In this document: one piece after another, positions 8,943 to 30,315 of the stretch
Layout: each line of letters opens with the position of its first letter
Numbering within the stretch: position 1 is the stretch's first letter
From: Mycolicibacterium smegmatis
GTDB taxonomy: Bacteria; Actinomycetota; Actinomycetes; Mycobacteriales; Mycobacteriaceae
Direction of reading: 5' to 3'
Length of the DNA: 32,000 nucleotides
Assembly (NCBI RefSeq): GCF_001457595.1
Contig: NZ_LN831039.1
Location: 2,400,001 to 2,432,000 of the forward strand
Position numbers and translations under genes: made by a program
The notes under the pieces: model-generated
Databases searched by the model: none
Told to the model about the DNA's origin: nothing
The model's input: the letters and a program-made list of their open reading frames with translations, nothing else

Positions 8943-8971
8943 GCGGCAACGGTTTTTCGGATCGCGCCGCC

Positions 8972-15553: not shown

Positions 15554-16615
15554 TCACCGCCGCAGCGTTTCAGATGGCGTCTCACCCCACCGTTTTCGGT
15601 ACTCCACGGCGAAGCTGCCGAGGTGGTGGAAGCCCCAGCGTTCGGCGACCGCGGTCACCGTGACGCCGTCGGACGGGATGGCGTCGGTCAGTTCCTCGCG
15701 CACGCGTTCCAGGCGACGTTCGCGGATGAACGTGGTTGGGCTCATTCCGAGTTCGGTGCGAAAGCCCTGCTGGATCGACCGGACGCTCATGTGCAGCGCC
15801 TCGGCCAGCGACTCCATGGTGATCTTCTCGGCCAGATGGTCCTCGATGTAGTCGACGGCCTGCTGGATCACCGCCCGGCGCGGGGTTGCCGGTGTGGGGC
15901 GGGTGATGTCGGAGTAGTAGGTCGACGGCTGCAGGTACAGCAGGCTGCTCATCACGAGTTCCTCGACGGGACCGATGGCGCAGCCGCGCTGCACCAGCGA
16001 ACCGGCGTGGTACACCTCGGTGTGGATCAGCTGTACCGCGGCGTGCCAGCGGGTGGCCGCCTCGGTGGTGAGGTCGAACTCGGGCTCGAACCTCAGCGGT
16101 CCGACCAGGTTCCGCCCGAGCAGGCGCGTGAGGTGGGCATTCATCGCCTCCTCCTCGATGCGCACCAGCATCTGCGGCGAGTCGTGTGCGAAGCTCATCC
16201 GGACCGGGTCGCCCGGGCTGGTGACCAGCGACCGTGTGGTGCCTGCGTCGAACTCGGCCGCTGGATGGGTCACCGTGGCGCTGCCGTTGAGCGGCATGTG
16301 CACCGCGAAGTAGCGCCCGGATTCCGGGATGTCGAGGGCCGCGGCCACGTGCAGGTCGAGGTAGAGCAGGCTGACGTTGCGCAACCGGACGCCGTGCATG
16401 GTCGCCGCGAAACCTCCGGCATCGGCGGCGTCGACCGTGAGCGTCAGGGGCGACAGCGTGCGACCGACCAGACGCGCGGCCTCGCGGACGTCCTCGGTGT
16501 AGAAGATCTCGTGATCGGCCAGCGCGGGCGGGACGCCGCGGCTGCGCACCTTTCGCCGCACGGGATCGCTGGTGCGGCGGATGTCGATGAACCCGAGCCG
16601 GGTCAGCCGTGACAT
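15554..16615 (-). CDS. AraC/XylS-family transcriptional regulator
   Basis: 353-codon ORF starting at ATG 16615. It has a C-terminal double HTH (AVDYIEDHLAEKITMESLAEALHMSVRSIQQGFRTELGMSPTTFIRERRLERVREEL) and an N-terminal AraC-type effector-domain-like half. It lies upstream of, and co-oriented with, cstA, and is divergent from hucM. Confidence 0.85.
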   Translation of the reverse strand: MSRLTRLGFIDIRRTSDPVRRKVRSRGVPPALADHEIFYTEDVREAARLVGRTLSPLTLTVDAADAGGFAATMHGVRLRNVSLLYLDLHVAAALDIPESGRYFAVHMPLNGSATVTHPAAEFDAGTTRSLVTSPGDPVRMSFAHDSPQMLVRIEEEAMNAHLTRLLGRNLVGPLRFEPEFDLTTEAATRWHAAVQLIHTEVYHAGSLVQRGCAIGPVEELVMSSLLYLQPSTYYSDITRPTPATPRRAVIQQAVDYIEDHLAEKITMESLAEALHMSVRSIQQGFRTELGMSPTTFIRERRLERVREELTDAIPSDGVTVTAVAERWGFHHLGSFAVEYRKRWGETPSETLRR

Positions 16616-16843
16616 CCGGGAACCCCCAGCAACGCCCGGCCTGATACGCGAGCTAAGGAAAGCCTAACTTTGGTCGGAGATAACGGATTTCGATCCCGCA
16701 CCGCAACCCTCCTGATCGTCAGACGCGCATGAGCGCACCTATCTTTGCGCAATCCGGACAGGAATTGCGCGAAAGCGATAGGCATCCGCGCATAGGTGAG
16801 GATATGTTTGCCGCGTCGCCGAAACTCCGAGCGGGAGGATGGA
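16616..16843. promoter_or_regulatory. Divergent AraC / hucM intergenic region with paired TTGCGC motifs (candidate operator/promoters)
   Basis: This 228-bp non-coding stretch is visibly less GC-rich than the flanks. The palindrome TTGCGCAA sits at 16745-16752 and TTGCGCGA at 16765-16772, 20 bp (two helical turns) apart. GCGCA (16733-16737) and TGCGC (16746-16750) form a short inverted repeat. No promoter boxes could be assigned confidently. Confidence 0.3.
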
Positions 16844-17413
16844 ATGGCCAGCAACGGTCACAGTGCCGGTCAGAATGCGATCGACGAACTTCCAGACATC
16901 TCGCCGGCCGACGGGATCCGTCGGCGTCTCGACGATCCCCAGGTTGCCGAGGCCCTCAACAGCTTGCTCGACCATGCGGACCTGCTCGCGGTCCTCGTCA
17001 AGGGTCTCGACGGATTCGTGCGTCGCGGTGACGACATCGCGAACAACCTGACGTCGGCGATCGGGGAGTTGAAGGCGCTCAACGCGGCTGACACGCCCAT
17101 CCCCGCACTCGCGGCGCTCAAGGACGTCGACCTGGCGGGGTTGGCGAACTCGCTGGCAACGTTGTCCGGGGGACTGGTGAAGGCGACGCCGGCGCTCAAC
17201 GCGGTGCTGGATTCGTTGACCGACCAGCGTGGCGCCGAGGTGCTGTCGGCACTGGGGGACGCGCTGGTGGCGGCGCGCACATCGGCGCCGCCCGCGCCGC
17301 GCGGTGTGCGGGGGATGTGGAAGACGCTGCGCGCGGCGGCCAAGGATCCCGACGTCGGCCGTGGTGTGTCGTACCTGATCGAAGTCGCCCGCGTCTTCGG
17401 CAGCAAGGTGTGA
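16844..17413 (+). CDS. hucM: HucM-like hydrogenase scaffold subunit (DUF1641-like)
   Basis: ATG 16844 lies 5 nt after GGAGG (16834-16838); the ORF-track GTG at 16796 would add 16 aa. The product is 189 aa, helical and Ala/Leu-rich (DDPQVAEALNSLLDHADLLAVLVKGLDGFVRRGDDIANNL), with no obvious TM helix. It lies directly upstream of the small subunit, as in the published M. smegmatis Huc operon. Confidence 0.7.
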   Translation: MASNGHSAGQNAIDELPDISPADGIRRRLDDPQVAEALNSLLDHADLLAVLVKGLDGFVRRGDDIANNLTSAIGELKALNAADTPIPALAALKDVDLAGLANSLATLSGGLVKATPALNAVLDSLTDQRGAEVLSALGDALVAARTSAPPAPRGVRGMWKTLRAAAKDPDVGRGVSYLIEVARVFGSKV

Positions 17414-18486: not shown

Positions 18487-20094
18487 ATGACCGAACTCGA
18501 CCTTTTCGTCAGCCCGTTGGGCCGCGTCGAGGGCGACCTCGACGTCCGCGTCACCATCAACGACGGCGTCGTCACGTCGGCCTGGACCGAGGCGGCGATG
18601 TTCCGAGGCTTCGAGATCATCCTGCGCGGCAAGGACCCTCAGGCCGGGCTGATCGTGTGCCCGCGCATCTGCGGCATCTGCGGCGGCAGCCACCTGTACA
18701 AGTCCGCCTACGCCCTGGACACCGCCTGGCGCACCCACATGCCGCCCAACGCGACCCTGATCCGCAACATCTGCCAGGCCTGCGAGACGCTGCAGTCGAT
18801 CCCGCGGTACTTCTACGCGCTGTTCGCCATCGACCTGACCAACAAGAACTACGCCAAGTCCAAGCTCTACGACGAGGCCGTGCGCCGGTTCGCACCCTAC
18901 GTCGGCACGAGTTACCAGCCGGGCGTGGTGCTTTCGGCCAAACCGGTTGAGGTCTACGCGATCTTCGGAGGGCAGTGGCCGCATTCGAGTTTCATGGTGC
19001 CCGGCGGTGTGATGAGCGCGCCGACGCTGTCCGACGTCACACGTGCCATCGCGATCCTGGAGCATTGGAACGACAACTGGCTCGAGAAGCAGTGGCTGGG
19101 CTGCTCGGTCGACCGCTGGCTGGAGAACAAGACCTGGAACGACGTGCTGGCCTGGGTCGACGAGAACGAATCCCAGTACAACAGCGACTGCGGGTTCTTC
19201 ATCCGGTACTGCCTGGACGTCGGCCTGGACAAGTACGGCCAGGGCGTGGGCAACTACCTGGCCACCGGGACGTATTTCGAACCGTCGCTGTACGAGAACC
19301 CGACCATCGAGGGACGCAACGCCGCGCTCATCGGACGTTCGGGTGTGTTCGCCGACGGCAGGTACTTCGAGTTCGACCAGGCCAACGTCACCGAAGACGT
19401 CACGCACTCGTTCTACGAGGGCAACCGGCCGCTGCATCCGTTCGAGGGCGAGACCATCCCGATCAACCCCGAGGACGGCCGAAGGCAGGGCAAGTACAGC
19501 TGGGCCAAGTCACCGCGGTACGCCGTGCCCGGCCTGGGCAACGTACCGCTGGAGACCGGACCGCTGGCGCGCCGCATGGCGGCCTCTGCCCCCGACGCCG
19601 AAACGCACCAGGACGACGACCCGCTGTTCGCCGACATCTACAACGCGATCGGGCCGTCGGTGATGGTGCGCCAACTCGCCCGCATGCACGAGGGACCCAA
19701 GTACTACAAGTGGGTGCGGCAGTGGCTCGACGATCTGGAGCTCAAGGAGAGCTTCTACACCAAGCCCGTCGAGTACGCCGAGGGCAAGGGCTTCGGCTCC
19801 ACCGAGGCCGCGCGCGGCGCCTTGAGCGACTGGATCGTCATCGAGGATTCGAAGATCAAGAACTATCAGGTCGTCACGCCGACCGCGTGGAACATCGGCC
19901 CGCGTGACGCCTCGGAGGTCCTCGGCCCGATCGAACAGGCCCTCGTCGGCTCGCCGATCGTCGATGCCGAGGACCCCGTGGAGCTCGGGCACGTGGCACG
20001 CAGTTTCGACTCGTGCCTGGTGTGTACCGTGCACGCCTACGACGGCAAGACCGGCAAGGAACTGAACCGGTTCGTGATCAACGGGATGGTGTGA
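18487..20094 (+). CDS. hucL: [NiFe]-hydrogenase large subunit, group 2a (Huc) type
   Basis: ATG 18487, 535 aa. The N-terminal Ni-Fe ligands are PRICGICGGSH and the C-terminal ligands are DSCLVCTVH. These are followed by a 19-aa tail (AYDGKTGKELNRFVINGMV) that would be removed by the endopeptidase. Confidence 0.95.
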   Translation: MTELDLFVSPLGRVEGDLDVRVTINDGVVTSAWTEAAMFRGFEIILRGKDPQAGLIVCPRICGICGGSHLYKSAYALDTAWRTHMPPNATLIRNICQACETLQSIPRYFYALFAIDLTNKNYAKSKLYDEAVRRFAPYVGTSYQPGVVLSAKPVEVYAIFGGQWPHSSFMVPGGVMSAPTLSDVTRAIAILEHWNDNWLEKQWLGCSVDRWLENKTWNDVLAWVDENESQYNSDCGFFIRYCLDVGLDKYGQGVGNYLATGTYFEPSLYENPTIEGRNAALIGRSGVFADGRYFEFDQANVTEDVTHSFYEGNRPLHPFEGETIPINPEDGRRQGKYSWAKSPRYAVPGLGNVPLETGPLARRMAASAPDAETHQDDDPLFADIYNAIGPSVMVRQLARMHEGPKYYKWVRQWLDDLELKESFYTKPVEYAEGKGFGSTEAARGALSDWIVIEDSKIKNYQVVTPTAWNIGPRDASEVLGPIEQALVGSPIVDAEDPVELGHVARSFDSCLVCTVHAYDGKTGKELNRFVINGMV

Positions 20095-20134: not shown

Positions 20135-20932
20135 GTGGTCGGGTGCGGCAACCTCCTGCGGGGTGACGACGGGGTCGGTCCGGTGCTCGTCCGCCACCTG
20201 TGGGAGCGCGGCGTGCCGGCCGGCGCCCGCCTGGTCGACGGCGGGACGGCCGGCATGGACGTCGCGTTCCAGATGCGCGGGGCCGAGCGGGTGGTGATCA
20301 TCGACGCCGCCGCTACGGGGTCGGCACCGGGCACCGTGTTCCGGGTCCCCGGTGAGGAACTCGCCGAACTGCCGCCTCTGCAGGGGCTGCACACGCACTC
20401 GTTCCGTTGGGACCACGCGATCGCGTTCGCGCGGTGGGCGCTGGCGGACGACTGTCCCACCGACATCACGGTGTTCCTGATCGAGGCCGAGAACGTCGAC
20501 TTCGGCGCCGAGTTGTCCGAGCGGGTGAGCGCGGCGATGGAAGAGGTGATCGCGCTGATCGAGCGGGACTACCTGGGGCCGCTGCGGCCGCAGGCCGCCG
20601 ACGAGGTCGAGGTCGAGATCACCGAGGACGGCTACCTGCGCCTGACTGCCGACGTCGCCGCGGCCCGGTTCCCGTCCGACGCCGTGGCCGCGATGGTGCG
20701 TGACGACGATCTGTGGGTCATCCCGCTGCGGGGTCCGCGCAGCGGCGGTCTGCTGCTCAAACAGCGCAATCCCGCCGGGGACCGGTCGGTGCTGATCGCC
20801 GAGGTGCTCAGGGACCAAACCAGGGTTGAAGTTAGGGAGACCTTACTTTCTGGCCCCCATCGGGCATTCTGGGACGATGAGAAGTCAGCATTACGCATCC
20901 CCATCCCCGCTGATCTGCGGGAGGCGCGGTGA
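20135..20932 (+). CDS. Hydrogenase maturation endopeptidase (HyaD/HybD/HupD family) fused to a ~115-aa C-terminal extension of unknown function
   Basis: GCGNLLRGDDGVGPVLV...VDGGTAGMDV...VVIIDAA...HTHSF... is the canonical protease core, occupying roughly the first 145 aa. The ORF then continues for ~115 more residues to TGA 20930-20932. GTG 20135 is the only ATG/GTG/TTG start in frame after the stop at 20075-20077 (see findings). Confidence 0.8.
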   Translation: MVGCGNLLRGDDGVGPVLVRHLWERGVPAGARLVDGGTAGMDVAFQMRGAERVVIIDAAATGSAPGTVFRVPGEELAELPPLQGLHTHSFRWDHAIAFARWALADDCPTDITVFLIEAENVDFGAELSERVSAAMEEVIALIERDYLGPLRPQAADEVEVEITEDGYLRLTADVAAARFPSDAVAAMVRDDDLWVIPLRGPRSGGLLLKQRNPAGDRSVLIAEVLRDQTRVEVRETLLSGPHRAFWDDEKSALRIPIPADLREAR

Positions 20933-21201
20933 TCGCCGTGTGTGAGTGCCAGCGGCCGTTCCCGCACGGGCTGCCCCGCACCGAGGTACGCGCCGAGGGT
21001 TCCGCCGATGTCGCGCACACCGTCGAGACCGTCGTCGTCGCTGAACGTGGCCACTTCGCGGTGGACATCGTCGTGGTCTTCGCCGACGGCGTCGTACGCA
21101 AGCGCATCGACACCTACCGCACTCGCGGACGTGCCGAACTGGCCGCCAGTCTGATCAAACGGGCCGCCGAACGGGACCCGAGGGGGCCGTTCATCCAGTG
21201 A
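20929..21201 (+). CDS. Small conserved hypothetical protein (90 aa, N-terminal CxC)
   Basis: GTG 20929 overlaps the protease stop (GTGA). GC3 bias is strong throughout. I recognise no domain. Confidence 0.6.
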   Translation: MIAVCECQRPFPHGLPRTEVRAEGSADVAHTVETVVVAERGHFAVDIVVVFADGVVRKRIDTYRTRGRAELAASLIKRAAERDPRGPFIQ

Positions 21202-21217
21202 CAACCATGGGAGGGCC

Positions 21218-22468
21218 GTGACCGAGACCGCAGTACTGACCGACTGCACCGACGTGTGCGTGCGCCCGCAACCGCTTGGTGCCTTCGGCCTTCCCCTGGG
21301 TTACCTGCTCGTGCCGGCCGGTTCCGACACCGACGCCGCACGTGCCGCGCTGGTCGGTGGGACACTGCCGCAGGCGTGGCCCGAGCGTCTGGCCGCGCAC
21401 CGGCACGCGCTCGCCGGTGACCGTGACGCGGCGCTGGCGGCGTTGGCGGGCGACGATCCCGTCACGCGCTACAACAGGTTCGTCCTCGATCCCGACGCGG
21501 CCGATCCCGACACGCTGCGCGCCGACCTGGGCGTGTTCGGTGTCCTCGTCGACGTCGTGCTGTTCGCGCTCGGCCGCAGCGACGCCGTGCCGAGCGCCGA
21601 AGGACTCGACGGCGAACTGGTCGCCGTGGTGCTCTCGGCGCAGGCGTCCGCGGCGCTCGACGCGGGCGACCCCGACCGCGCGGTCGCGCTTCTCGATCGG
21701 GCCGCCGACCAGGCGACACCGGTGAGCAGGCCGCTGGCCGGTGTGCTGCTGGGTGCGGCCGCCGGCATGCTCCGGGATACAGACGCGCCCGCGGCGCTGA
21801 CCCGCCTCGAGCGCGCCATCAAGCTGCTGGACAGTGCCGACGCGCTGCACGTGAGCCGTGCCGAACTGCACCTGACCGCGGCCGGGCTCCTGCACGAACA
21901 GTCCGCCGGGCGTCCCGAACTGCTGCCGGGCTGCGTCCCGCATTATCACGCTGTGCTGCAACTCATCCGGCGTGAGGACGCACCCCTGATGTGGGCGTCG
22001 GCGCACGCCGACCTGGCCACCGCCTACCTGACCATGCCGATGGTCGAGGCGTCCGGTCAGCTGCGCCTCGGCATCGCCGCACAGTCCCTGCGGCAGGCGC
22101 TGACGGTGTTCACCCGCGAGGCGCATCCCGCGCGGTGGGCCAGCGCGCAGCTGAACCTGGCCAACTCCCTGGTGTACAGCCCGACGAAACACCGCACCGA
22201 GAATCTCGTCGAGGCCGTCGAGATCTACGAGGCCGTGCTGGCCACCCGCGACCGCGACACCGACCCGCAGGGCCGAGCACGGGTGCTGACCAACCAGGGC
22301 AATACGCTCGCGCATCTCGGGATGTTCGACGTCGCCAAGGCCAAGCTGTACGAGGCCCGTTTCCTCTTCGAGGAACTCGGCGACACCGAATCCGTGCAGG
22401 CGGTGCGCGGCATCCTCGACGAGATCGCCAAACAGACCACGCTCAGTCGCGACGAGGAAGCGAAATGA
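21218..22468 (+). CDS. TPR-like helical-repeat protein
   Basis: GTG 21218 follows GGGAGGG. The 416-aa product is all-helical and Ala/Leu-rich, with repeated W-A-x-A-x-x-N/D-L-A-x-x-L/Y units (WASAHADLATAYL, WASAQLNLANSLV, RVLTNQGNTLAHLG) as in TPR_12-type repeats. Confidence 0.7.
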   Translation: MTETAVLTDCTDVCVRPQPLGAFGLPLGYLLVPAGSDTDAARAALVGGTLPQAWPERLAAHRHALAGDRDAALAALAGDDPVTRYNRFVLDPDAADPDTLRADLGVFGVLVDVVLFALGRSDAVPSAEGLDGELVAVVLSAQASAALDAGDPDRAVALLDRAADQATPVSRPLAGVLLGAAAGMLRDTDAPAALTRLERAIKLLDSADALHVSRAELHLTAAGLLHEQSAGRPELLPGCVPHYHAVLQLIRREDAPLMWASAHADLATAYLTMPMVEASGQLRLGIAAQSLRQALTVFTREAHPARWASAQLNLANSLVYSPTKHRTENLVEAVEIYEAVLATRDRDTDPQGRARVLTNQGNTLAHLGMFDVAKAKLYEARFLFEELGDTESVQAVRGILDEIAKQTTLSRDEEAK

Positions 22469-23352
22469 CCGCGGCGGTCGAGGCGCCAGAACTCGAGAAG
22501 CTGGCCCAGCGCGTGGACAACGCGGTCCGCGCGCTGGTCGACCTGGATCCCGAGGCACGCAAGGTCGCCGAGGAACTGAAGGCCGCGCTCGAGGAGATCC
22601 ACCGCGTCGGCCTGGTGACCATCGTCAAGCGAATGCGTTCCGGCGAGGCGACCCGGGAGGCGTTGTTCGAGCTCGTCGACGACCCCGTGGTGCGCATGCT
22701 GTTCACCTTGCACGGCATCATCCGCCCGGACACGACGACCCTGGCCGAACAGGCCCTCGCGCAGGTGCGACCGCAACTGCGCAGTCACGGAGGCGACGTG
22801 ACCCTGGTGCGCATCGAATCGGGGACCGCGTTCGTGCGGCTCGAAGGCGCCTGCAACGGCTGCTCGATGTCCGCGGTGACGCTGCGCCAGCTGGTGGAAA
22901 CCGCACTGCTGGAAGGTGTTCAGGGCGTGTCGAAGGTCGAGGTGCTGCCCAACGAGCCCACACCCACGGTGATCTCGATCGACGCCGTGCTGGCCGGGAG
23001 CACCGTGCGGCGCCGTGCCGAGGAGGGCTGGGTGCGCGCGGGTTCGGTCGACGCGGCTGTGGTCGACGACGTGACACCCGTGACGGTCACGGCGCCCGAC
23101 GGCAGTGAGGTTCGGCTTCTGCTGGTGAACCTGGGGCAGCGGATGTCGGCCTACCGCAACGAATGTGCGCACGAGGCACTTCCGCTCGACGGCGCGGTGC
23201 TCGACGTCGGCAACGGTACGCTGACGTGCCCGTGGCACGGATTCTGTTACGACGCGACATCGGGGGAGTGCATGTCGGCTCCCGGGGTCCAGCTCGAACC
23301 GCTGCCGCTGCGGATCGACGACGGCGACATCTGGGTGCGGGTCACCGGATGA
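22465..23352 (+). CDS. Nfu/NifU-C-terminal-like Fe-S scaffold domain fused to a Rieske [2Fe-2S] domain
   Basis: ATG 22465 overlaps the TPR stop (ATGA); the ORF-track start at 21991 lies inside the TPR gene. The Nfu block is VRPQLRSHGGDVTLVRIESGTAFVRLEGACNGCSMSAVTL. The Rieske ligands are CAHE ... CPWHGFCYD. Confidence 0.85.
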   Translation: MTAAVEAPELEKLAQRVDNAVRALVDLDPEARKVAEELKAALEEIHRVGLVTIVKRMRSGEATREALFELVDDPVVRMLFTLHGIIRPDTTTLAEQALAQVRPQLRSHGGDVTLVRIESGTAFVRLEGACNGCSMSAVTLRQLVETALLEGVQGVSKVEVLPNEPTPTVISIDAVLAGSTVRRRAEEGWVRAGSVDAAVVDDVTPVTVTAPDGSEVRLLLVNLGQRMSAYRNECAHEALPLDGAVLDVGNGTLTCPWHGFCYDATSGECMSAPGVQLEPLPLRIDDGDIWVRVTG

Positions 23353-24539
23353 GTCGCTACTCTGTGCGCCCGGTCGCCGACGGACGTCCCGCCGGACGGA
23401 CCGCCGCTGTCCTGGAGGACGAACTCACCGGCGGCCGACGTCCGCTCGTGTGGCTCGGGGCGCCCGCTCCGGGTGGACTCGCGCTGCCGCCGGCCAGTCC
23501 CACCATGGCGTGGATGTACTCGCCGCGTGGGGTTTTCGTCGACGACGAGCACGTCGTCGTCGCCGACTCGGGCAATCACCGGGTGCTGATCTGGCACGGT
23601 GTCCCCGACCGCGACCACGCTCCCGCCGACGTGGTGCTCGGCCAGCCCGACGGAACCACCGAGGGACGTGCCGCTGGCGGCCGCGGCCCGGCCCGCGGGA
23701 TGAACCTGCCCACCGGGGTGGCGGTGATCGACGGACGACTGCTGGTTGCCGATGCCTGGCACCACCGCATCCTGATCTGGGATGAGGTGCCCACGCGTGA
23801 CGACGTCGCGCCCGATGTGGTGCTGGGGCAACCGGATCCCGAATCGGTGGAACCCAACGCGGGTGTGGAGTGTTCGGCGTCGAGTTTCTACTGGCCGTTC
23901 GGATTCGCCCTGCTGGGCGGGCGGTTCTGGGTGGCCGACACCGGCAACCGCCGGGTTCTGGCGTGGAACAACGGAATTCCCGACCCGGGACAGCCCGCCG
24001 ATGTCGTGCTCGGCCAACCCGATGCGTCGGCGCGCGAGGAGAACCGCGGCGAACCGGTCGGCCCCTCCGGTTTTCGCTGGCCACACGCCATCACGGGCAC
24101 CGGGGATCTGTTGCTGGTGGCCGACGCCGGTGACCATCGGATCCTCGGCTGGTCACCGCATCCGGGTGCCGATGTGCTGGCGAATGTGGTGTACGGGCAA
24201 CCCGATTTCTGTTCGGCGACCGAATGGCCGTACGGTCCCCAGACCGGGGACCGGTTCCGGTTCCCGTATGGCGCCGTGGTCGACGACGGCCGCCTGGCGG
24301 TGGCCGACACCGCCAACAACCGGATCCTGCTGTGGGACTCTCTGCCTGACGATCCAGTCGGTGGACGCCCGGCCGATCACGTGCTGGCGCAACCGGATTT
24401 CGCGTCCAACGGGGAGAACCGTTGGGACCTGGTGGGCCGGGACACCCTCTGCTGGCCCTACGGCCTGCATCTGCACCGCGATCTCTTGGCAGTCGCGGAC
24501 TCCGGCAACAACCGAGTCATGTTGTGGGGGCGGCGATGA
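23349..24539 (+). CDS. NHL-repeat six-bladed beta-propeller protein
   Basis: ATG 23349 overlaps the upstream stop (ATGA). There are six blades: VADSGNHRVLIW, VADAWHHRILIW, VADTGNRRVLAW, VADAGDHRILGW, VADTANNRILLW and VADSGNNRVMLW. They are joined by VVLGQPD-type linkers. I see no signal peptide. Confidence 0.85.
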   Translation: MSRYSVRPVADGRPAGRTAAVLEDELTGGRRPLVWLGAPAPGGLALPPASPTMAWMYSPRGVFVDDEHVVVADSGNHRVLIWHGVPDRDHAPADVVLGQPDGTTEGRAAGGRGPARGMNLPTGVAVIDGRLLVADAWHHRILIWDEVPTRDDVAPDVVLGQPDPESVEPNAGVECSASSFYWPFGFALLGGRFWVADTGNRRVLAWNNGIPDPGQPADVVLGQPDASAREENRGEPVGPSGFRWPHAITGTGDLLLVADAGDHRILGWSPHPGADVLANVVYGQPDFCSATEWPYGPQTGDRFRFPYGAVVDDGRLAVADTANNRILLWDSLPDDPVGGRPADHVLAQPDFASNGENRWDLVGRDTLCWPYGLHLHRDLLAVADSGNNRVMLWGRR

Positions 24540-25372
24540 GACCGCGCATCGTGCAGACCGACGAGCAGGTCGGCTTTCACTGGGCAACCCCGCACGGTCG
24601 TCCCACCACGTTGCGGCATCTGGTCGCCGCGGACGACGAACCGGCCCGGTTGGCCGCGACCCACCTGTCGGCGCTCGATGACACCCTGATCGACACAGCG
24701 GGACGGTTCGGGCAGGTGCTCGGTGGCGGGCGCCGCCCATCGGCGGACGAGTGGGAAACCCTCGCAGAGTTGTACCGCTGCCTGGACCGGTCGTGTCTCG
24801 AGTACGCCGAGGCCATCGCCGAGATCAACGTCGCACCGGATGTACGGGCGGGCAAGATCATCGGGACCGCGGTGCTGGTCTCGATCCTGGCCCGGCAGGC
24901 CCTCGGACTGCTGGGACCGGTCCCCCTGGACGGTGAACTCGACGAACCCACGCTGGGCGTGGTCGGGGGTTACGGCGAACTGGTTCAGGCCGATCCGGAC
25001 AAGCCGTGGAAGGGCGGCAGGTGGGTGGTGCGCACCGAGACCGGATCGAGGCTGCCGCTGACCCTGTCGATGCTGTTGTTCGACAGTTCCGGTGTGAACA
25101 AGGACGCCGCGCGTCGCGAGCACCGGGACCTCATCCGCGCCGTGATCGCGGCCGCGTCTGCGCCGCAGGCGGATCCGCTCGATGTCGCGAGCGCACTGGA
25201 CTGGCTGCTGTACGACTGGCTCATGGCGCACCGCACCGACCCCGACAGTGCCGAGATCGGGATGGTCGGTGACACCGCAACCCAGAATGACTGTGCGGCC
25301 GTGATCGTGGCTGCCGCGGCCGCGTCCGTGCGGGCGCGCGCCTGCGTCGATCCCGGACTGGCGCTCACATGA
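24536..25372 (+). CDS. Conserved hypothetical protein (278 aa), last gene of the huc transcription unit
   Basis: ATG 24536 overlaps the NHL gene stop (ATGA). GC3-rich. I recognise no motif. Confidence 0.65.
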   Translation: MRPRIVQTDEQVGFHWATPHGRPTTLRHLVAADDEPARLAATHLSALDDTLIDTAGRFGQVLGGGRRPSADEWETLAELYRCLDRSCLEYAEAIAEINVAPDVRAGKIIGTAVLVSILARQALGLLGPVPLDGELDEPTLGVVGGYGELVQADPDKPWKGGRWVVRTETGSRLPLTLSMLLFDSSGVNKDAARREHRDLIRAVIAAASAPQADPLDVASALDWLLYDWLMAHRTDPDSAEIGMVGDTATQNDCAAVIVAAAAASVRARACVDPGLALT

Positions 25373-25378
25373 TCCGCG

Positions 25379-26158
25379 CTAACGCCCCGCCGTGAGGAAC
25401 CGGCGCAACCAGTCGTACCAGGCCTCCATGCCCTCGCCCGTGCGCGCGCTGACCGGAAGGATCTCGGTGGTCGGATTGACCTCCCGCACACGGGAAGTGT
25501 AGGTCCGCACGTCGGCGTCGAGATGTGCGACCAGATCGATCTTGTTCAGCAGCACGACGTCCACGGCGCGGAACATCACCGGGTACTTCAGCGGCTTGTC
25601 CTCGCCTTCGGTGACCGAGTACACCATGACCTTGGCGTGCTCGCCGACGTCGAACTCCGCGGGGCACACCAGGTTTCCGACATTCTCGATGATCACCAGA
25701 TCGAGTCTGGTCAGGTCGAGGCCCTGCAGGGCACGGTTGACCATGGGTGCGTCGAGATGGCATTCACCGCCGAAACCGTTGGCGGTGTTGAGCAGCGAGA
25801 TCTGAGCTCCGCGGCCGCCGAGTTTCGCGGCGTCCAGGTCGGTTTCGATGTCACCCTCGACGATGCCGACGGAGACGTCGGCGCCGAGATCGTCGAGGGT
25901 GCGGGCCAGCAGCGTGGTTTTCCCGGAGCCCGGTGAACTCATCAGATTGAGTGCCCGCACACCGTGTTCGGCGAACAGGCCACGGTTGATGTCGGCACGG
26001 ATGTCGTTCTCGGCGAAGATCGATTCGAGCACCTCGATGCGCTCGGTGCCGGTCTGATAGCCGCTGTGATCCCCGTGAGCATGATCATGAACGTGACCAT
26101 CTTGATCATGATCGTGTGTGTGCACGGTGCCGTCGTCGTGGCGGTGAAATCTACCCAC
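25379..26158 (-). CDS. hypB: Hydrogenase nickel-insertion GTPase HypB with a His/Asp-rich N-terminus
   Basis: GTG 26158 follows AAAGGGG. Motifs present are the P-loop SSPGSGKTTLL, IIENVGNLVCPAEFDVGE and NKxD (LLNKIDL). The N-terminus is GRFHRHDDGTVHTHDHDQDGHVHDHAHGDH. Confidence 0.95.
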   Translation of the reverse strand: MGRFHRHDDGTVHTHDHDQDGHVHDHAHGDHSGYQTGTERIEVLESIFAENDIRADINRGLFAEHGVRALNLMSSPGSGKTTLLARTLDDLGADVSVGIVEGDIETDLDAAKLGGRGAQISLLNTANGFGGECHLDAPMVNRALQGLDLTRLDLVIIENVGNLVCPAEFDVGEHAKVMVYSVTEGEDKPLKYPVMFRAVDVVLLNKIDLVAHLDADVRTYTSRVREVNPTTEILPVSARTGEGMEAWYDWLRRFLTAGR

Positions 26159-26170
26159 AGTTGCCCCTTT

Positions 26171-26506
26171 TCACGTCACTTCCAGCGATGTCACGAGGAA
26201 TTCCTCGCCACCGACCACCGCCACGTCGCAGCTGTTGCACGACGGGCACAGGATCGACCACCGTGAGGTCAGCTCGTGGCGTTGACCGCACTGCCGGCAG
26301 TCGACGACACCGGGGACCACCTCGAGTTCCAGTGCGGCATCGGCAAGGTCGGCCTGATCACGGACGATGTTCCAGCAGAATGTGAGTGTGTCCGGGACGA
26401 CCTGGCGCAATGCGCCGACGCGAACCCGCACCACCTGCACGGATCTGCCCTTGGCATGTTCGTTCACAACGCCTGCGATGGCCTGGCACAACGACAATTC
26501 ATGCAC
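26171..26506 (-). CDS. hypA: Hydrogenase nickel metallochaperone HypA
   Basis: GTG 26506 gives the canonical MHE N-terminus (MHELSLCQAI). The zinc site is CRQCG ... CPSCNS. Its stop lies 12 nt upstream of the hypB start. Confidence 0.9.
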   Translation of the reverse strand: MHELSLCQAIAGVVNEHAKGRSVQVVRVRVGALRQVVPDTLTFCWNIVRDQADLADAALELEVVPGVVDCRQCGQRHELTSRWSILCPSCNSCDVAVVGGEEFLVTSLEVT

Positions 26507-26666
26507 GTGTCCGCGGCGCCTCCGATCGGTGTTCCGTAGCAGACCTTACTCCTGAATGTGTTTGCGGCGAAGTGGGTTCAGTTAATCGTGCCGAGGGACT
26601 AAGGTGATGACCAAGCCCGCGTGCCACAGCCCACCGCCGCGGGTGATCGAGTGGCCCAGGAGGCTG
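26507..26666. promoter_or_regulatory. Divergent hypA / hypF intergenic region (promoters inferred, not mapped)
   Basis: About 160 bp of non-coding sequence between two divergently oriented hyp units, locally less GC-rich (…GACCTTACTCCTGAATGTGTTTGCGG…GTTCAGTTAATCGTG…). I could not assign specific boxes. Confidence 0.3.
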
Positions 26667-28955
26667 ATGAGCGTCTGTTGTCGTGTGCGGCTACAGATCA
26701 CCGGCGTTGTGCAGGGGGTCGGTTTCCGCCCCGCCGTGGCACGTCTGGCACGTGACCACGGGGTCGGAGGCTTCGTCTACAACGACGCCGGCGCGGTGTA
26801 CTGCGAACTCGAGGGCCCACAGGACGCCGTCGACGTGGTGGTAGAAGCGCTGCAGGCGGATCCGCCGCCGCTCGCCCGCATCGACAGCATCTCGGTGCAC
26901 CCCGTCGCGCCCCTCGGCGAGCGGACTTTCGACATCGTCGAAAGCAGTACCGGGGACGCGGGAGAGCGCACGCTGATACCGCCGGACAGCGCGATCTGTG
27001 CCGACTGCCTCCGGGAGGTGCGTGACCCGGCGGACCGTCGCTTCGGCCACGCGTTCATCACCTGCACCAACTGCGGGCCCCGCTATACCGTGATCACCGA
27101 CCTGCCCTACGACCGTCCCGCCACCACCATGGCGCGGTTTCCCATGTGCGAGCGGTGCGCCGCCGAATACCACGATCCGGTCGACCGCCGGTATCACGCC
27201 CAGACCATCGCCTGTCCGGACTGCGGGCCGCGACTGTCGTGGAACGGCGACGAGCACGACGACCCGATCGGGGCCGCGGCAGCGGCGCTGCTGGCCGGCC
27301 GGATCGTCGCGATCAAAGGGATTGGCGGGTTCCATCTGGCGTGCGTGGCCACGGACACAACCACGGTGGCCGAACTGCGCCGGCGAAAGAACCGCCCGGC
27401 CAAGCCGTTCGCTGTGATGGTGGCCGACCTCGGTGCCGCGCGCCGCATCGCCGACATCAGCGCTGCCGCGGCCGCCGAACTCAGCTCACCCGCGGCCCCG
27501 ATCGTCCTGGTGCCCGGTCGCGACGACACCGTGCGGGACGCCGTGGCACCGGGTCTGCGAGACGTCGGCGTGATGCTCGCGTACTCGCCCGTGCACCACC
27601 TGCTCTTCGACAGGCTCGGCCCGGTGGTGCTCGTGATGACGTCCGCGAACGCCGGCGGATCCCCGATCGTCTACCGCGACGAGGACCTGCACTGGATCGA
27701 CGGCCTGGCCGACGCCGTGCTCAGCCACGACCGCCCGATCCATGTGCCGTGCGAGGATTCGGTGCTGACGGTCACCGACGACGGCCACACGGTGCCGATC
27801 CGCCGGTCGCGCGGTTTCGCGCCACTGCCGATGACCGTGCGTGTGCCAGGTCGTCGTGACGGTGGCGCACCGGTCATCCTGGCGACCGGAGGCGATCTGA
27901 AGACCACGTTCTGCCTGCTGGGTGGGGACGGACGGGCACACCTGTCCTCACACCTGGGCGATATGGCCGATCCGCGCACACAGCTGTGTTTCACCTCGGC
28001 CTACGCCCACGTGTCCCAGATGACCCGGCGGCGACCCGATCTCATCGCCTGCGATGCGCATCCGCGCTACGCCACCACCAACTGGGCGCTGCGGCAGGAC
28101 CTGCCGGTGTGGACCGTGCAGCACCATCACGCCCATGCGGCGTCGCTGCTCGCCGAACACGACCGGCTCGGCAGCCTGGCACTCGTGGTCGCCTACGACG
28201 GGACCGGCTACGGCACCGACGGAACCATCTGGGGCGGCGAGCTTCTGGCGCTCGGCGACCCAGCGACGTTCACCCGGGTCGGCCACCTCGGGGTGTTCAG
28301 CCTTCCCGGCGGTGACGGGGCCGTGCGCCAACCGGCGCGCATCGCGCTGGATCTGCTGCACCGCGCCGGAATCGAGTGGGATCCGGCGTTGCCGTGCGTC
28401 GCCGAACTCGACGCGAATGCGATGAAGATTCTGGCCCAACAGATTCCGCGGCAGTTCCGCTGCATACCCACCAGCAGCATGGGCCGGCTGTTCGACGCCG
28501 TGTCCAGCCTGTTGGGGGTGTGCCAGACCGTGACCTACGAGGGCCAGGCCGCGGTCGAACTCGAACACGTCGCGCGGTCGGGCCGGGCGGTGCCGATGGA
28601 TTTCGGTGTGCACGGCGGGATCCTCGACCCGCTGCCCCTGCTGGGTGACCTGGTCGCCGGACTGCGAGCGCGTACCGAGATCGCCGATCTGGCAGCCGGA
28701 TTCCACGCCGCGGTGATCCGTGCGACCGTCACGGCGGTCACCGACTGCGCGGAGTCGGCCGGCGTCGGGACGGTGGGGCTGACCGGAGGCGTGTTCGTCA
28801 ACCGGATCCTGCTCGACGGGTTGCGAGAAGAGTTGACCTCCCGGGGGTTGGAAGTGCTGACCCATGCCTGTCTGCCGTGCAACGACGGCGGCCTGGCGTT
28901 GGGACAGGCCGCGGTGGTCGCGGCCGGCGGGGGAATTCGGAAAGGAGAGGCCTGA
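26667..28955 (+). CDS. hypF: Carbamoyltransferase HypF
   Basis: ATG 26667 follows AGGAGG (26658-26663); the alternatives GTG 26604 and ATG 26607 would add ~21 aa. Recognisable parts are the acylphosphatase-like domain VQGVGFRP, two zinc-finger pairs (CADC...CTNCGPRY and CERC...CPDCGPR), the YrdC-like IVAIKGIGGFHLAC, and a Kae1-like C-terminal half. Confidence 0.9.
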   Translation: MSVCCRVRLQITGVVQGVGFRPAVARLARDHGVGGFVYNDAGAVYCELEGPQDAVDVVVEALQADPPPLARIDSISVHPVAPLGERTFDIVESSTGDAGERTLIPPDSAICADCLREVRDPADRRFGHAFITCTNCGPRYTVITDLPYDRPATTMARFPMCERCAAEYHDPVDRRYHAQTIACPDCGPRLSWNGDEHDDPIGAAAAALLAGRIVAIKGIGGFHLACVATDTTTVAELRRRKNRPAKPFAVMVADLGAARRIADISAAAAAELSSPAAPIVLVPGRDDTVRDAVAPGLRDVGVMLAYSPVHHLLFDRLGPVVLVMTSANAGGSPIVYRDEDLHWIDGLADAVLSHDRPIHVPCEDSVLTVTDDGHTVPIRRSRGFAPLPMTVRVPGRRDGGAPVILATGGDLKTTFCLLGGDGRAHLSSHLGDMADPRTQLCFTSAYAHVSQMTRRRPDLIACDAHPRYATTNWALRQDLPVWTVQHHHAHAASLLAEHDRLGSLALVVAYDGTGYGTDGTIWGGELLALGDPATFTRVGHLGVFSLPGGDGAVRQPARIALDLLHRAGIEWDPALPCVAELDANAMKILAQQIPRQFRCIPTSSMGRLFDAVSSLLGVCQTVTYEGQAAVELEHVARSGRAVPMDFGVHGGILDPLPLLGDLVAGLRARTEIADLAAGFHAAVIRATVTAVTDCAESAGVGTVGLTGGVFVNRILLDGLREELTSRGLEVLTHACLPCNDGGLALGQAAVVAAGGGIRKGEA

Positions 28956-29215
28956 TGTGTCTGGGAATACCCGGCAAGGTCGTCGCAGTGTGGGACGAAG
29001 CCGGAACCCGAATGTCCACGGTCGACTTCGGCGGCACCACCAAGACGGTCTGCCTGGCGTATCTGCCCGACATGCAGATCGGGGAGTACACGATCGTGCA
29101 CGCGGGCTTCGCCATCACCCGTCTGGATGAGGCCTCCGCACAGGAAACCCTGCGGATGTTCAAAGACCTCGGGGTGCTCGACGAGGAATTGGCCGAGGGG
29201 GTGGAAACGGCATGA
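28955..29215 (+). CDS. hypC: Hydrogenase assembly chaperone HypC
   Basis: ATG 28955 overlaps the hypF stop (TGATG) and follows AAAGGAGAGG. The N-terminus [10 protein letters not shown] is canonical. The product is 86 aa. Confidence 0.95.
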
Positions 29216-30315
29216 AGTACCTCGACGAGTTCCGTGACCCCGTCGCGGCGCGCACCCTGGTCGACCGCATCAACCGGGCCGCGACAAGAACCTGGACCAT
29301 GATGGAAGTCTGTGGTGGCCAGACACATTCGATCATCCGCAACGGCATCGACCAGCTCCTGGAGGGTTCCGTCGAGTTCGTGCACGGCCCCGGTTGCCCC
29401 GTGTGCGTCACGCCCCTGGAGGTGATCGACCGTGCGTTGGAGATCGCCGCGCGTGACGACGTGATCTTCTGCTCGTTCGGCGACATGCTGCGTGTGCCAG
29501 GAAGTCATCAGGACCTGTTCAGCGTCAAGGCCCGCGGCGGTGACGTGCGCATCGTCTACTCACCGCTGGACGCCACCCGTGTGGCCGCCGACAACCCGGA
29601 CAAGCAGGTGGTGTTCTTCGGGGTCGGCTTCGAGACCACCGCACCCGCCAACGCCATGGCCGTGGTGCACGCGAAACGTCTGGGCCTGAAAAACTTCTCG
29701 ATGCTGGTCTCACACGTGCTGGTGCCGCCGGCGATGACGGCCATCCTCAGTTCACCCAGCAACCGGGTCCAGGGATTCCTGGCAGCCGGGCACGTGTGCT
29801 CGGTGATGGGCACGTCCGAATACGGGCCTCTGGTGGAGAAGTTCGACGTCCCGATCGTGGTGACCGGATTCGAGCCGCTGGACCTGCTCGAGGGGGTGCG
29901 GCAACTCGTGGACCTGTTGGAGGCCGGTACACCGGAGTTGCGCAACGCCTATTCACGCGCCGTCACGGCCGAGGGCAACGTCTTCGCGCAGCAGACGCTG
30001 TCCGAGGTGTTCACGGTGACCGACCGGCAGTGGCGCGGCATCGGCATGATCCCGCGTTCGGGGTGGACGTTGTCACCGCAGTACGCGGAGTTCGACGCCG
30101 AACTGAGGTTCGGTGTCGGTCATCTGCAGGTCGCCGAATCGGCCGAGTGCCGCAGCGGCGAGGTGCTGCAGGGGCTGTTGAAACCCAACGAGTGCCCGGC
30201 CTTCGGCAAGACCTGCACACCGCGAAACCCGTTGGGTGCCACCATGGTGTCGAGCGAAGGCGCGTGCGCCGCGTACTACCAGTTCCGTCGACTCGAGGCG
30301 GCCGCTCATGTCTGA
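29212..30315 (+). CDS. hypD: Hydrogenase maturation factor HypD
   Basis: ATG 29212 overlaps the hypC stop (ATGA). Motifs CGGQTHSI and [10 protein letters not shown] are present. The product is 367 aa. Confidence 0.95.

What the first reader, a model, noticed from the sequence alone, without database searches (positions are those of the whole stretch)
20929..25372. Five translationally coupled genes of unknown function between the Huc endopeptidase and the hyp genes
Seen in sequence: five genes follow the protease. They are a 90-aa CxC protein (GTGA overlap with the protease stop at 20929-20932), a 416-aa TPR-like protein (16-nt gap) and a 295-aa Nfu-Rieske fusion (ATGA at 22465-22468). Next come a 396-aa six-bladed NHL propeller (ATGA at 23349-23352) and a 278-aa protein with no motif I can name (ATGA at 24536-24539). 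All show strong GC3 bias, so they are real genes, and I see no signal peptide or TM segment in any. Established: canonical [NiFe] maturation needs HypA-F plus the endopeptidase, and all of these are separately encoded here. Inference: this block is a co-expressed add-on machinery specific to this hydrogenase type. Candidate roles are building or repairing its Fe-S relay, O2 protection, or assembly of the HucM-scaffolded oligomer. To my knowledge none of the five has an assigned biochemical function.
Basis: partly seen in the sequence, partly recalled or inferred. Interest (0 to 1): 0.75.

Follow-up and report, generated by a model that had tools for sequence, protein, structure and literature searches.

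The report
Known Huc hydrogenase accessory gene block
These five genes are real. They are the already described accessory genes MSMEG_2266 to MSMEG_2270 of the Mycolicibacterium smegmatis Huc hydrogenase: one (HucE) is known to be essential for Huc activity, and what any of them does chemically is still unknown.

Summary
Five same-strand ORFs lie at the stated coordinates with GTGA/ATGA overlaps, GC3 of 0.80-0.87 and the stated domains. The window is the M. smegmatis huc locus; the genes are MSMEG_2266-2270.

- The TPR/NifU/NHL block between hupSL and hyp was described in Nostoc in 2008.
- The Nfu-Rieske protein is HucE. Its deletion abolishes Huc activity and is complemented in trans (2019).

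My synteny survey used 85 loci anchored on the NHL gene.
- hucS, hucL and the protease lie upstream in 65 of 67 informative loci, from at least 7 phyla.
- TPR was found in 66/67, HucE in 64/67 and the 90-aa protein in 52/67.
- The 278-aa protein is restricted to Actinomycetota and sits in two alternative operon-terminal positions.

New details:
- The protease carries a C-terminal domain ("X") that is a separate ORF in other phyla and is fused to the 90-aa protein's homologue in Sulfobacillus.
- The "CxC" motif is not conserved.
- The 278-aa protein has a confident predicted fold with no PDB match.

Purified Huc contains only HucS, HucL and HucM and reduces menaquinone directly. The block is therefore best read as a type-specific maturation and assembly set, probably for the HucS Fe-S clusters. 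It is unlikely to be an electron relay.

The parts
16796..17413 (+). hucM (MSMEG_2261-type stalk subunit, DUF1641 C-terminus); first gene of the unit
   Evidence: Pfam DUF1641. HucM is identified as MSMEG_2261 directly upstream of hucS in PMC10017518.
17484..18455 (+). hucS, group 2a [NiFe]-hydrogenase small subunit
   Evidence: Translation. It is 70-93% identical to annotated hydrogenase small subunits in loci L001-L005.
18487..20094 (+). hucL, large subunit
   Evidence: Translation shows the RICGICGGSH and DSCLVCTVH motifs. It is 54-86% identical to annotated large subunits.
20135..20566 (+). Huc maturation endopeptidase, HycI/HybD-type domain (aa 1-144 of the 265-aa ORF 20135-20932)
   Evidence: Pfam HycI at 59.9 bits and TIGR00072 at 140.9 bits.
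20606..20905 (+). Domain 'X': C-terminal extension of the protease ORF (aa ~158-257). It is a conserved module that is a free-standing ~100-aa ORF in other phyla.
   Evidence: blastp against separate ORFs that follow the protease: Thermus (51% identity, 2e-26), Mesorhizobium, Sphingopyxis, and the N-terminal half of Sulfobacillus Sulac_3577. X is fused to the protease in 55 loci and separate in 9. It has no Pfam family.
20929..21201 (+). g1 = MSMEG_2266, 90 aa (87 aa in another annotation). Small beta-beta-beta-alpha protein; the conserved core is aa 24-83.
   Evidence: Exact match to M. smegmatis proteins. Homologues occur in 52 of 67 loci. It is fused to X in Sulfobacillus. C5 and C7 are not conserved. 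The g1-like half of the fusion model has pLDDT of about 88-91.
21218..22468 (+). g2 = MSMEG_2267, 416-aa TPR-like helical-repeat protein ('hcaA')
   Evidence: TPR_12 at 30.7 bits. Present in 66 of 67 loci. Detected as a protein in PMC5338346.
22465..23352 (+). g3 = hucE (MSMEG_2268): N-terminal helical region + Nfu-type domain (C130-x-x-C133) + Rieske domain (C234-x-H236 ... C255-x-x-H258)
   Evidence: Pfam NifU and Rieske. Rieske ligands are 94% conserved and the Nfu Cys 87-88%. It falls in the same 90% cluster as ABK72538/AFP38681. Genetics are in PMC6883350.
23349..24539 (+). g4 = MSMEG_2269, 396-aa six-bladed NHL beta-propeller ('hcaB')
   Evidence: Pfam NHL at 94 bits. Six ADxGNxR..W repeats are visible and it is 41-69% identical across four phyla. 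At least 583 genome contigs encode a relative.
24536..25372 (+). g5 = MSMEG_2270, 278 aa. An orphan family detected only in Actinomycetota; last gene of the unit.
   Evidence: No Pfam, NCBIfam or PDB sequence match. Only 89 cluster representatives among 1.84 billion proteins. AF2 gives pLDDT 93.6 and pTM 0.92. No Foldseek PDB match. It takes two alternative positions in related loci.
25379..26158 (-). hypB, convergent with g5 (6-nt spacer)
   Evidence: Pfam cobW/HypB; sequence.
26171..26506 (-). hypA
   Evidence: Pfam HypA at 105 bits.
26604..31381 (+). hypF (26604-28955), hypC (within ORF 28877-29215), hypD (29212-30315), hypE (ORF 30236-31381; start not settled, 30349 also possible)
   Evidence: Pfam.
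15554..16615 (-). AraC-family regulator, divergent from hucM (context, not part of the block)
   Evidence: Pfam AraC_binding_2 + HTH_18. The same arrangement occurs in 42 of 50 loci.

Best explanation
The five ORFs are the distal genes of the M. smegmatis huc structural operon (MSMEG_2266-2270). They are accessory factors for making active Huc. They are not subunits of the finished enzyme.

Shown:
- The genes are real.
- g2 (TPR), g3 (HucE) and g4 (NHL), and usually g1 plus a protease-linked domain X, travel with group 2a hydrogenase genes in a fixed order across at least seven phyla.
- HucE is genetically essential for Huc activity.
- Purified Huc contains only HucS, HucL and HucM and reduces menaquinone directly.

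Inferred mechanism:
- HucE uses its Nfu-type CxxC domain as an Fe-S cluster carrier or donor. Its Rieske [2Fe-2S] domain acts as a one-electron partner. Together they build or finish the three [3Fe-4S] clusters of HucS in air. This is analogous to the rubredoxin and chaperone set (HoxR/HupI, HupG/H/J) of O2-tolerant group 1 hydrogenases.
- The TPR solenoid and the NHL propeller are protein-binding platforms. They would hold apo-HucS or the HucS-HucL intermediate during this step.
- X and g1 form a module tied to the endopeptidase step, as shown by fusions in both directions.
- g5 is an operon-terminal add-on found only in Actinomycetota. It has an unmatched fold and many conserved polar residues, and its role is unknown.
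For: Identity: exact or >=90% matches to M. smegmatis MSMEG_2266-2270.

Synteny, anchored on the NHL gene: hucS, hucL and the protease lie upstream on the same strand in 65 of 67 informative loci. TPR is present in 66/67, HucE in 64/67, X in 57/67 and g1 in 52/67. The taxa are Actinomycetota, Chloroflexota, Planctomycetota and Acidobacteriota from genomes, and Deinococcota, Bacillota and Pseudomonadota from plasmids. The literature adds Cyanobacteria, Kyrpidia and Parageobacillus.

Genetics: a hucE deletion loses Huc activity in whole cells and in NBT zymograms, and is complemented in trans.

Not a subunit or relay: purified Huc is HucS/L/M only. It binds menaquinone at the distal cluster and reduces menadione directly. 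All three HucS clusters are [3Fe-4S].

Motifs: the Nfu CxxC and Rieske CxH...CxxH ligands are conserved.

Expression: g2 and g3 are detected as proteins and co-vary with HucL, HucM and HypC.

Transcription unit: tight overlaps, and no internal promoter or terminator signal above shuffles.

Fusions: protease+X in 55 loci and X+g1 in Sulfobacillus.
Against: - No biochemical experiment shows cluster binding or transfer by HucE, or any interaction of g1, g2, g4 or g5 with HucS or HucL.
- No deletion phenotype for g1, g2, g4 or g5 turned up in the papers I could search.
- HucE is absent from two Frankia loci and one Pirellulales locus that keep TPR and NHL. The set is therefore not strictly indivisible.
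- In Parageobacillus thermoglucosidasius the TPR and NHL genes are reported at near-zero expression while their neighbours are induced hundreds-fold.
- g5's only distant relative outside the huc/hyp clusters lies among NAD+ synthase and NUDIX genes.
- My synteny set is anchored on the NHL gene. It measures how often NHL relatives sit beside hydrogenases, not how many group 2a loci carry the block.
- Only the best 80 of at least 583 NHL relatives were inspected.
Confidence: 0.55

Rival explanations
1. HucE, possibly with the other proteins, is the physiological electron acceptor that carries electrons from Huc to menaquinone. This was the hypothesis originally favoured by Islam et al. 2019.
For: The Rieske domain is suited to high-potential electrons. 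The gene sits in the structural rather than the hyp operon. Group 2a enzymes lack a cytochrome b subunit.
Against: Purified HucS/L/M reduces menadione and carries bound menaquinone next to the distal cluster, and HucE is not in the complex. NBT cannot bypass the hucE deletion in zymograms. That result argues that the enzyme itself is defective.
Confidence: 0.1
2. The block protects or repairs the mature enzyme in air. For example, it could rebuild oxidised Fe-S clusters reductively or reactivate the enzyme, using the Rieske domain as electron donor. It would not act in first-time assembly.
For: Group 2a enzymes work in aerobes. [quoted passage not shown] HhyE carries CxxC pairs where HucE carries a Rieske domain, so the redox module is interchangeable.
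Against: The hucE deletion phenocopies a hucS deletion completely rather than partially. Huc is reported as O2-insensitive in vitro without these proteins.
Confidence: 0.15
3. The TPR and NHL proteins are assembly chaperones for the 833-kDa HucM-scaffolded oligomer.
For: TPR and beta-propeller proteins commonly scaffold large assemblies. HucM is co-encoded here and in 50 of 67 loci.
Against: The block is intact in 13 loci with no detectable HucM homologue beside hucS. These include both proteobacterial plasmids, Frankia and Pirellulales. Both the high-MW and the low-MW Huc activity bands are lost in the hucE deletion.
Confidence: 0.1
4. g5, and perhaps g1, are lineage-specific hitch-hikers with no role in Huc biogenesis.
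For: The g5 family is tiny, with 89 representatives in 1.84 billion proteins. It is absent from 17 of 60 informative loci. Its one distant relative is unlinked to hydrogenases.
Against: g5 is kept inside the huc/hyp supercluster in two different positions, directly after the NHL gene in 28 loci and further downstream in 15. Where DUF6390 was searched, g5 directly follows it in 17 loci. Retention through rearrangement argues for functional linkage. About 85 residues are >=90% conserved among the 60 g5 homologues, many of them polar. g1 is fused to X in Sulfobacillus.
Confidence: 0.1

Closest known systems
Cyanobacterial 'extended hyp operon' ORFs asr0689-alr0693 of Nostoc PCC 7120 (Agervald 2008, PMC2408588; Holmqvist 2011, PMC3126725)
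   Same: It is a run of small ORFs, a TPR protein (alr0691), a NifU-like protein (alr0692) and an NHL protein (alr0693) between the group 2a structural genes hupSL and the hyp genes. It is found only in strains with the uptake hydrogenase. It was proposed to mature the small subunit.
   Different: In Nostoc the ORFs are co-transcribed with hypF and the following hyp genes. Here g5 is followed by the convergent hypB-hypA pair. The Nostoc small ORFs are described as membrane-spanning, whereas g1 is not. Nostoc has no g5 equivalent described. I did not have the Nostoc sequences, so equivalence rests on domain content and order.
HucE / HhyE putative iron-sulfur proteins (Islam, Cordero and Greening 2019, PMC6883350)
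   Same: g3 is HucE itself (MSMEG_2268). It has the Nfu-like CxxC domain plus the Rieske motif and is essential for Huc activity.
   Different: Nothing differs for g3. HhyE, of group 1h, replaces the Rieske domain with two CxxC motifs and shares about 27% identity.
Small-subunit maturation set of O2-tolerant group 1 hydrogenases (HupG/H/I/J of Rhizobium leguminosarum; HoxO/Q/R/T of Ralstonia eutropha)
   Same: It is a type-specific accessory gene set between the structural and hyp genes. It includes a small redox protein (rubredoxin HupI/HoxR) needed for aerobic Fe-S maturation, plus chaperones that bind pre-HupS (as summarised).
   Different: No sequence homology was reported or found. The group 1 proteins act on a Tat-signal-bearing small subunit. 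The comparison is functional analogy only.
Nfu/NfuA-type Fe-S carrier proteins
   Same: The NifU C-terminal domain has the CxxC motif (PF01106 at 76.6 bits). The closest solved relatives are chloroplast NifU-like (NFU) proteins.
   Different: It is fused to a Rieske ferredoxin domain and to a ~90-aa N-terminal helical region. It scores far below the NfuA/NifU equivalog cut-offs (48.9 against 269 bits).

Membership tests
HucE (group 2a-associated Nfu-Rieske protein) | Sequence identity with MSMEG_2268 and position in a group 2a hydrogenase operon | tested here: met
   It is in the same 90% cluster as ABK72538/AFP38681 of M. smegmatis mc2 155. It lies downstream of hucS and hucL.
HucE (group 2a-associated Nfu-Rieske protein) | CxxC in a NifU-like domain plus a C-terminal Rieske signature | tested here: met
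   C130-N-G-C133; C234-A-H236 ... C255-P-W-H258. The residues are 87-94% conserved in 84 homologues.
HucE (group 2a-associated Nfu-Rieske protein) | Actually binds Fe-S clusters | not testable with these tools
   No biochemical data were found in the searched literature.
Rieske [2Fe-2S] domain (PF00355) | Pfam score above the gathering cut-off | tested here: met
   43.0 bits against 20.3.
NifU C-terminal / Nfu domain (PF01106) | Pfam score above the gathering cut-off | tested here: met
   76.6 bits against 27. It is not an NfuA or NifU equivalog.
NHL-repeat beta-propeller (PF01436) | Repeated NHL units forming a six-bladed propeller | tested here: met
   94 bits with four stretches passing. 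Six ADxGNxR..W units are visible in the sequence and alignment. The propeller geometry itself was not modelled.
TPR repeat protein | Pfam TPR model above the cut-off | tested here: inconclusive
   TPR_12 scores 30.7 against 30.1 bits, and all other TPR models fall below their cut-offs. 'TPR-like helical repeat' is the safer label.
Extended hyp operon block (Nostoc type) | [quoted passage not shown] | tested here: met
   The same order occurs in 64-66 of 67 loci.
Extended hyp operon block (Nostoc type) | Co-transcription with the hyp genes | tested here: not met
   g5 is followed after 6 nt by the convergent hypB-hypA pair, and hypF starts only at 26604. In other loci the NHL gene does overlap hypF (23 NTGA overlaps).
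HycI/HybD hydrogenase endopeptidase (for the upstream ORF) | Protease domain model above the cut-off | tested here: met
   TIGR00072 scores 140.9 against 47.45 and PF01750 scores 59.9 against 23, covering aa 1-144 only.
AbrB/MazE/MraZ-like swapped-hairpin fold (considered for domain X) | Significant sequence or fold match | tested here: not met
   MazE_antitoxin E = 0.17. Foldseek MraZ E = 0.16-0.9 with TM of about 0.2, on a model of pLDDT 66.

The most novel reading that the evidence does not exclude
The conserved protease-X-g1-TPR-HucE-NHL set could be a dedicated aerobic pathway that installs the unusual all-[3Fe-4S] relay of HucS. In this reading HucE donates or converts clusters on a TPR/NHL platform, and the step is coupled to C-terminal processing of HucL through X and g1. 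g5 would be a new-fold metallochaperone or enzyme, found only in Actinomycetota, that tunes this step.
Probability: 0.25. Interest if true: 0.7.

Novelty: already known. Interest (0 to 1): 0.38.

Why it matters
Huc oxidises atmospheric H2 in air and is being pursued as a biocatalyst. The unusual chemistry of its small subunit, three [3Fe-4S] clusters, must be built by something. These accessory genes are the obvious candidates and would probably have to be co-expressed for heterologous production. The value of this locus is therefore as a well-defined open question, not as a discovery. The gene set, its conservation and the essentiality of HucE are already published. The present analysis adds three things. 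It gives a cleaner definition of the conserved core (X, g1, TPR, HucE, NHL) against the lineage-specific parts (g5, Y, small TM ORFs). It provides fusion evidence that links g1 to the protease step.

Tried and rejected
1. Two homologous-protein searches, for g5 and for HucE, listed only mycobacterial relatives at >=63% identity. They were useless for distant synteny. I obtained distant loci through tblastn against plasmids and a genome scan with an NHL alignment.
2. The third search, with the Sulfobacillus X+g1 fusion, found only 2 proteins. The AF2 model of the fusion is therefore weak (pLDDT 66), and its Foldseek hits (MraZ, dsRBD-like) are not significant.
5. I tested whether g5 and the Y family, which have complementary distributions, are remote homologues. 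hhalign gave a probability of 0.2%, so this is rejected.
6. One literature search was swamped by 'hucMSC' stem-cell papers.
7. I considered the g1 CxC as a metal site and rejected it, because it is 0% conserved.
8. I considered TM helices in g2 and g5 from the Kyte-Doolittle peaks. I rejected this because of the charged residues and because the g5 stretch lies within a confidently predicted helix.

Full report
WHAT IS THERE

The window is the huc locus of Mycolicibacterium smegmatis. All six proteins I looked up are exact matches to M. smegmatis entries.

- cstA (-) and an AraC-family regulator (15554-16615, -).
- hucM (16796-17413), hucS (17484-18455), hucL (18487-20094) and the endopeptidase (20135-20932).
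- g1 (20929-21201), g2 (21218-22468), g3 (22465-23352), g4 (23349-24539) and g5 (24536-25372).
- hypB and hypA, convergent on the minus strand (25379-26506).
- hypF, hypC, hypD and hypE on the plus strand (26604-31381).

In public annotation g1 to g5 are MSMEG_2266 to MSMEG_2270.

CHECK OF THE OBSERVATION

GC3 is 0.80-0.87. I found no convincing TM segment. No promoter-like or terminator-like signal exceeds the shuffled expectation between 16500 and 26700. That fits one transcription unit from hucM to g5.

There are two qualifications.
- Public annotations disagree on four of the five start codons, so the overlaps are model-dependent. NTGA junctions do recur in most related loci, but my start choice favoured them and the loci are phylogenetically related.

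IS IT LINKED TO THIS HYDROGENASE TYPE?

A tblastn of HucE against plasmids gave annotated group 2a loci in Thermus, Sulfobacillus, Mesorhizobium, Sphingopyxis and a Mycobacterium intracellulare plasmid. I aligned their NHL proteins with g4; they are 41-69% identical. I then used that alignment to scan one genome per species.

At least 583 contigs encode a relative, and the best 80 were fetched with 10-kb flanks. Iterative HMM searches with all window proteins gave the following for the 67 loci with at least 7.5 kb upstream of the NHL gene.
- hucS, hucL and the protease: 65/67.
- TPR: 66/67.
- HucE: 64/67. It is missing in two Frankia loci and one Pirellulales locus.
- X: 57/67.
- g1: 52/67.

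The two exceptions for the hydrogenase genes are a decayed locus in M. agri and a locus with a 7-kb insertion.

The taxa span Actinomycetota, Chloroflexota, Planctomycetota, Acidobacteriota, Deinococcota, Bacillota and Pseudomonadota. The literature adds Cyanobacteria, Kyrpidia and Parageobacillus with the same order.

g5 IS DIFFERENT

Its family has only 89 cluster representatives among 1.84 billion proteins, most of them fragments.

Among the 60 loci with enough downstream sequence:
- g5 directly follows the NHL gene in 28, as it does here.
- g5 lies further downstream in 15.
- g5 is absent from 17. These are Frankia, Dactylosporangium, Acidimicrobiales and all non-actinobacterial loci.

Where a DUF6390 gene was found, g5 directly follows it at the far end of the hyp operon (17 loci).

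A 30%-identical relative on a Euzebya plasmid sits among NAD+ synthase and NUDIX genes, with no hydrogenase nearby.

AF2 gives a confident mixed alpha/beta model (pLDDT 93.6, pTM 0.92). It has no Foldseek match in the PDB (best E = 2, TM <= 0.26) and no sequence match. About 85 residues are >=90% conserved in the family, including H43, H196, H232 and many Asp, Arg and Trp residues.

Retention inside the huc/hyp supercluster in two positions argues for a Huc-related role. What that role is remains unknown.

A HIDDEN SIXTH MODULE

The M. smegmatis protease is 265 aa, but the HycI domain ends near residue 144. The remainder, 'X', is homologous to several ORFs.
- A free-standing ~100-aa ORF directly after the protease in Thermus. 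It is unannotated there (51% identity, 2e-26).
- The equivalent ORFs in Mesorhizobium and Sphingopyxis.
- The N-terminal half of Sulfobacillus Sulac_3577. The C-terminal half of that protein is homologous to g1.

X is fused to the protease in 55 loci and separate in 9. These fusions, in both directions, tie g1 to the protease step. X, g1, g5 and a further family 'Y' have no Pfam family.

Y is about 120 aa and lies between TPR and HucE in 10 loci, none of which has g5. It is not homologous to g5 (hhalign probability 0.2%).

The hints that X has an AbrB/MazE/MraZ-like fold are not significant.

WHAT IS KNOWN

- Agervald et al. 2008 and Holmqvist et al. 2011 described the TPR/NifU-like/NHL ORFs between hupSL and hyp in N2-fixing cyanobacteria. 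They proposed small-subunit maturation.
- Islam et al. 2019 named g3 HucE. They showed that its deletion abolishes Huc activity in cells and in NBT zymograms and is complemented in trans. They favoured an electron-relay role while leaving maturation open.
- Islam et al. 2020 listed hucE and the NHL proteins as common neighbours of hucL.
- The Kyrpidia paper cites the names hcaA (TPR) and hcaB (NHL).
- Grinter et al. 2023 purified Huc as HucS/L/M only. They showed bound menaquinone at the distal cluster and direct menadione reduction. They also found that all three HucS clusters are [3Fe-4S].
- Proteomics detects g2 and g3 co-varying with HucL, HucM and HypC.
- I found no later paper that assigns a biochemical function.

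MOST LIKELY MECHANISM

HucE is essential, but it is neither in the purified enzyme nor needed for quinone reduction in vitro. NBT also cannot bypass its loss. The relay model is therefore disfavoured and a biogenesis role is favoured.

The domain logic is an Nfu-type cluster carrier fused to a one-electron Rieske module. In HhyE the Rieske module is replaced by CxxC pairs. [quoted passage not shown] Together these point to redox-assisted Fe-S cluster delivery to HucS in air.

The TPR and NHL proteins would be binding platforms, and X and g1 would be attached to the endopeptidase step. This mechanism is inference. Only the genetics of HucE and the composition of Huc are shown experimentally.

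Three observations count against a strict 'one machine' view.
- Frankia and one Pirellulales locus lack HucE.
- The TPR and NHL transcripts of Parageobacillus are reported at near zero.
- The block persists where no HucM is detectable beside hucS. This also argues against a role specific to the HucM oligomer.

VERDICT

However, the block is a re-discovery of a published and partly characterised locus. The open question of its biochemistry is genuine and experimentally tractable, but it is already recognised by the field.

Noticed in passing
window 20135-20932 (aa ~158-257 = 20606-20905); L001 6954-7274; L002 7212-7709; L004 6943-7257; L005 6912-7223: The C-terminal ~100 aa of the Huc protease is a conserved domain ('X'). 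It is a separate ORF in Thermus (unannotated there), Mesorhizobium and Sphingopyxis. In Sulfobacillus it is fused to a g1 homologue. It has no Pfam family.
   Followed up: yes
L001 8594-8971; L078 8940-9323; L079 8565-8954; L081 8996-9355; L082 8288-8650 (10 loci in all): A further conserved ~120-aa family ('Y', motif ERQQFDxLL...ERIVQRN...GVWLSxFVD) sits between the TPR and HucE genes in Thermus, Chloroflexota, Planctomycetota, Acidobacteriota and some Actinomycetota loci. It occurs only in loci without g5 and is absent from the window. Proteobacterial loci have two small hydrophobic ORFs at that position instead.
   Followed up: partly
window 15554-16615 (-); e.g. L003 2004-3059: An AraC-family regulator transcribed divergently from hucM is conserved in 42 of 50 loci that have hucM. 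A 2026 paper (PMC13098282) reports that the direct regulators of the huc promoter are still unidentified and does not mention AraC. This gene is an obvious candidate.
   Followed up: partly
L007 5249-6843; 17 loci: In loci where hypF directly follows the NHL gene, g5 is the last gene of the hyp operon. There it always directly follows a DUF6390 gene, and the two ORFs often overlap. The window and other 'type A' loci have no DUF6390 gene.
   Followed up: partly
L006 11836-12717 (Euzebya pacifica plasmid): The only distant g5 relative found outside the huc/hyp clusters (30% identity) lies between NAD+ synthase and NUDIX genes. The region also holds nicotinate phosphoribosyltransferase, ligA, ruvB and sbcCD genes, and no hydrogenase.
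   Followed up: no
L007 6832-9741 (M. intracellulare plasmid NZ_CP012886.2): On this 437-kb mycobacterial plasmid the huc-hyp cluster directly abuts cbbX and the form I RuBisCO large and small subunit genes. This suggests a plasmid-borne H2-driven CO2-fixation module.
   Followed up: no
L048 (Mycolicibacterium agri) 8789-9063; L056 2686-10076: L048 is a decayed huc locus. A hucM fragment abuts a g2 fragment, and hucS, hucL, the protease, X and g1 are missing, while HucE, NHL, hyp and g5 remain. L056 carries a ~7.3-kb insertion between HucE and the NHL gene.
   Followed up: no
PMC12976888 Table, Parageobacillus thermoglucosidasius IMI45_RS09620 and RS09635: The TPR and NHL genes of the Huc-type locus are reported at near-zero expression (0.01-0.04). 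The flanking hypothetical and NifU-family genes rise to about 400-600. This is either an artefact or evidence that these two genes are dispensable there.
   Followed up: no
window 20800-20850 (protease aa ~228-238): Compared with homologues, the window's X domain carries a short insertion: '...RDQTRVEVRETLLSGPHRAFWDD' against '...ADRPVTGVHQAFWDD'.
   Followed up: no
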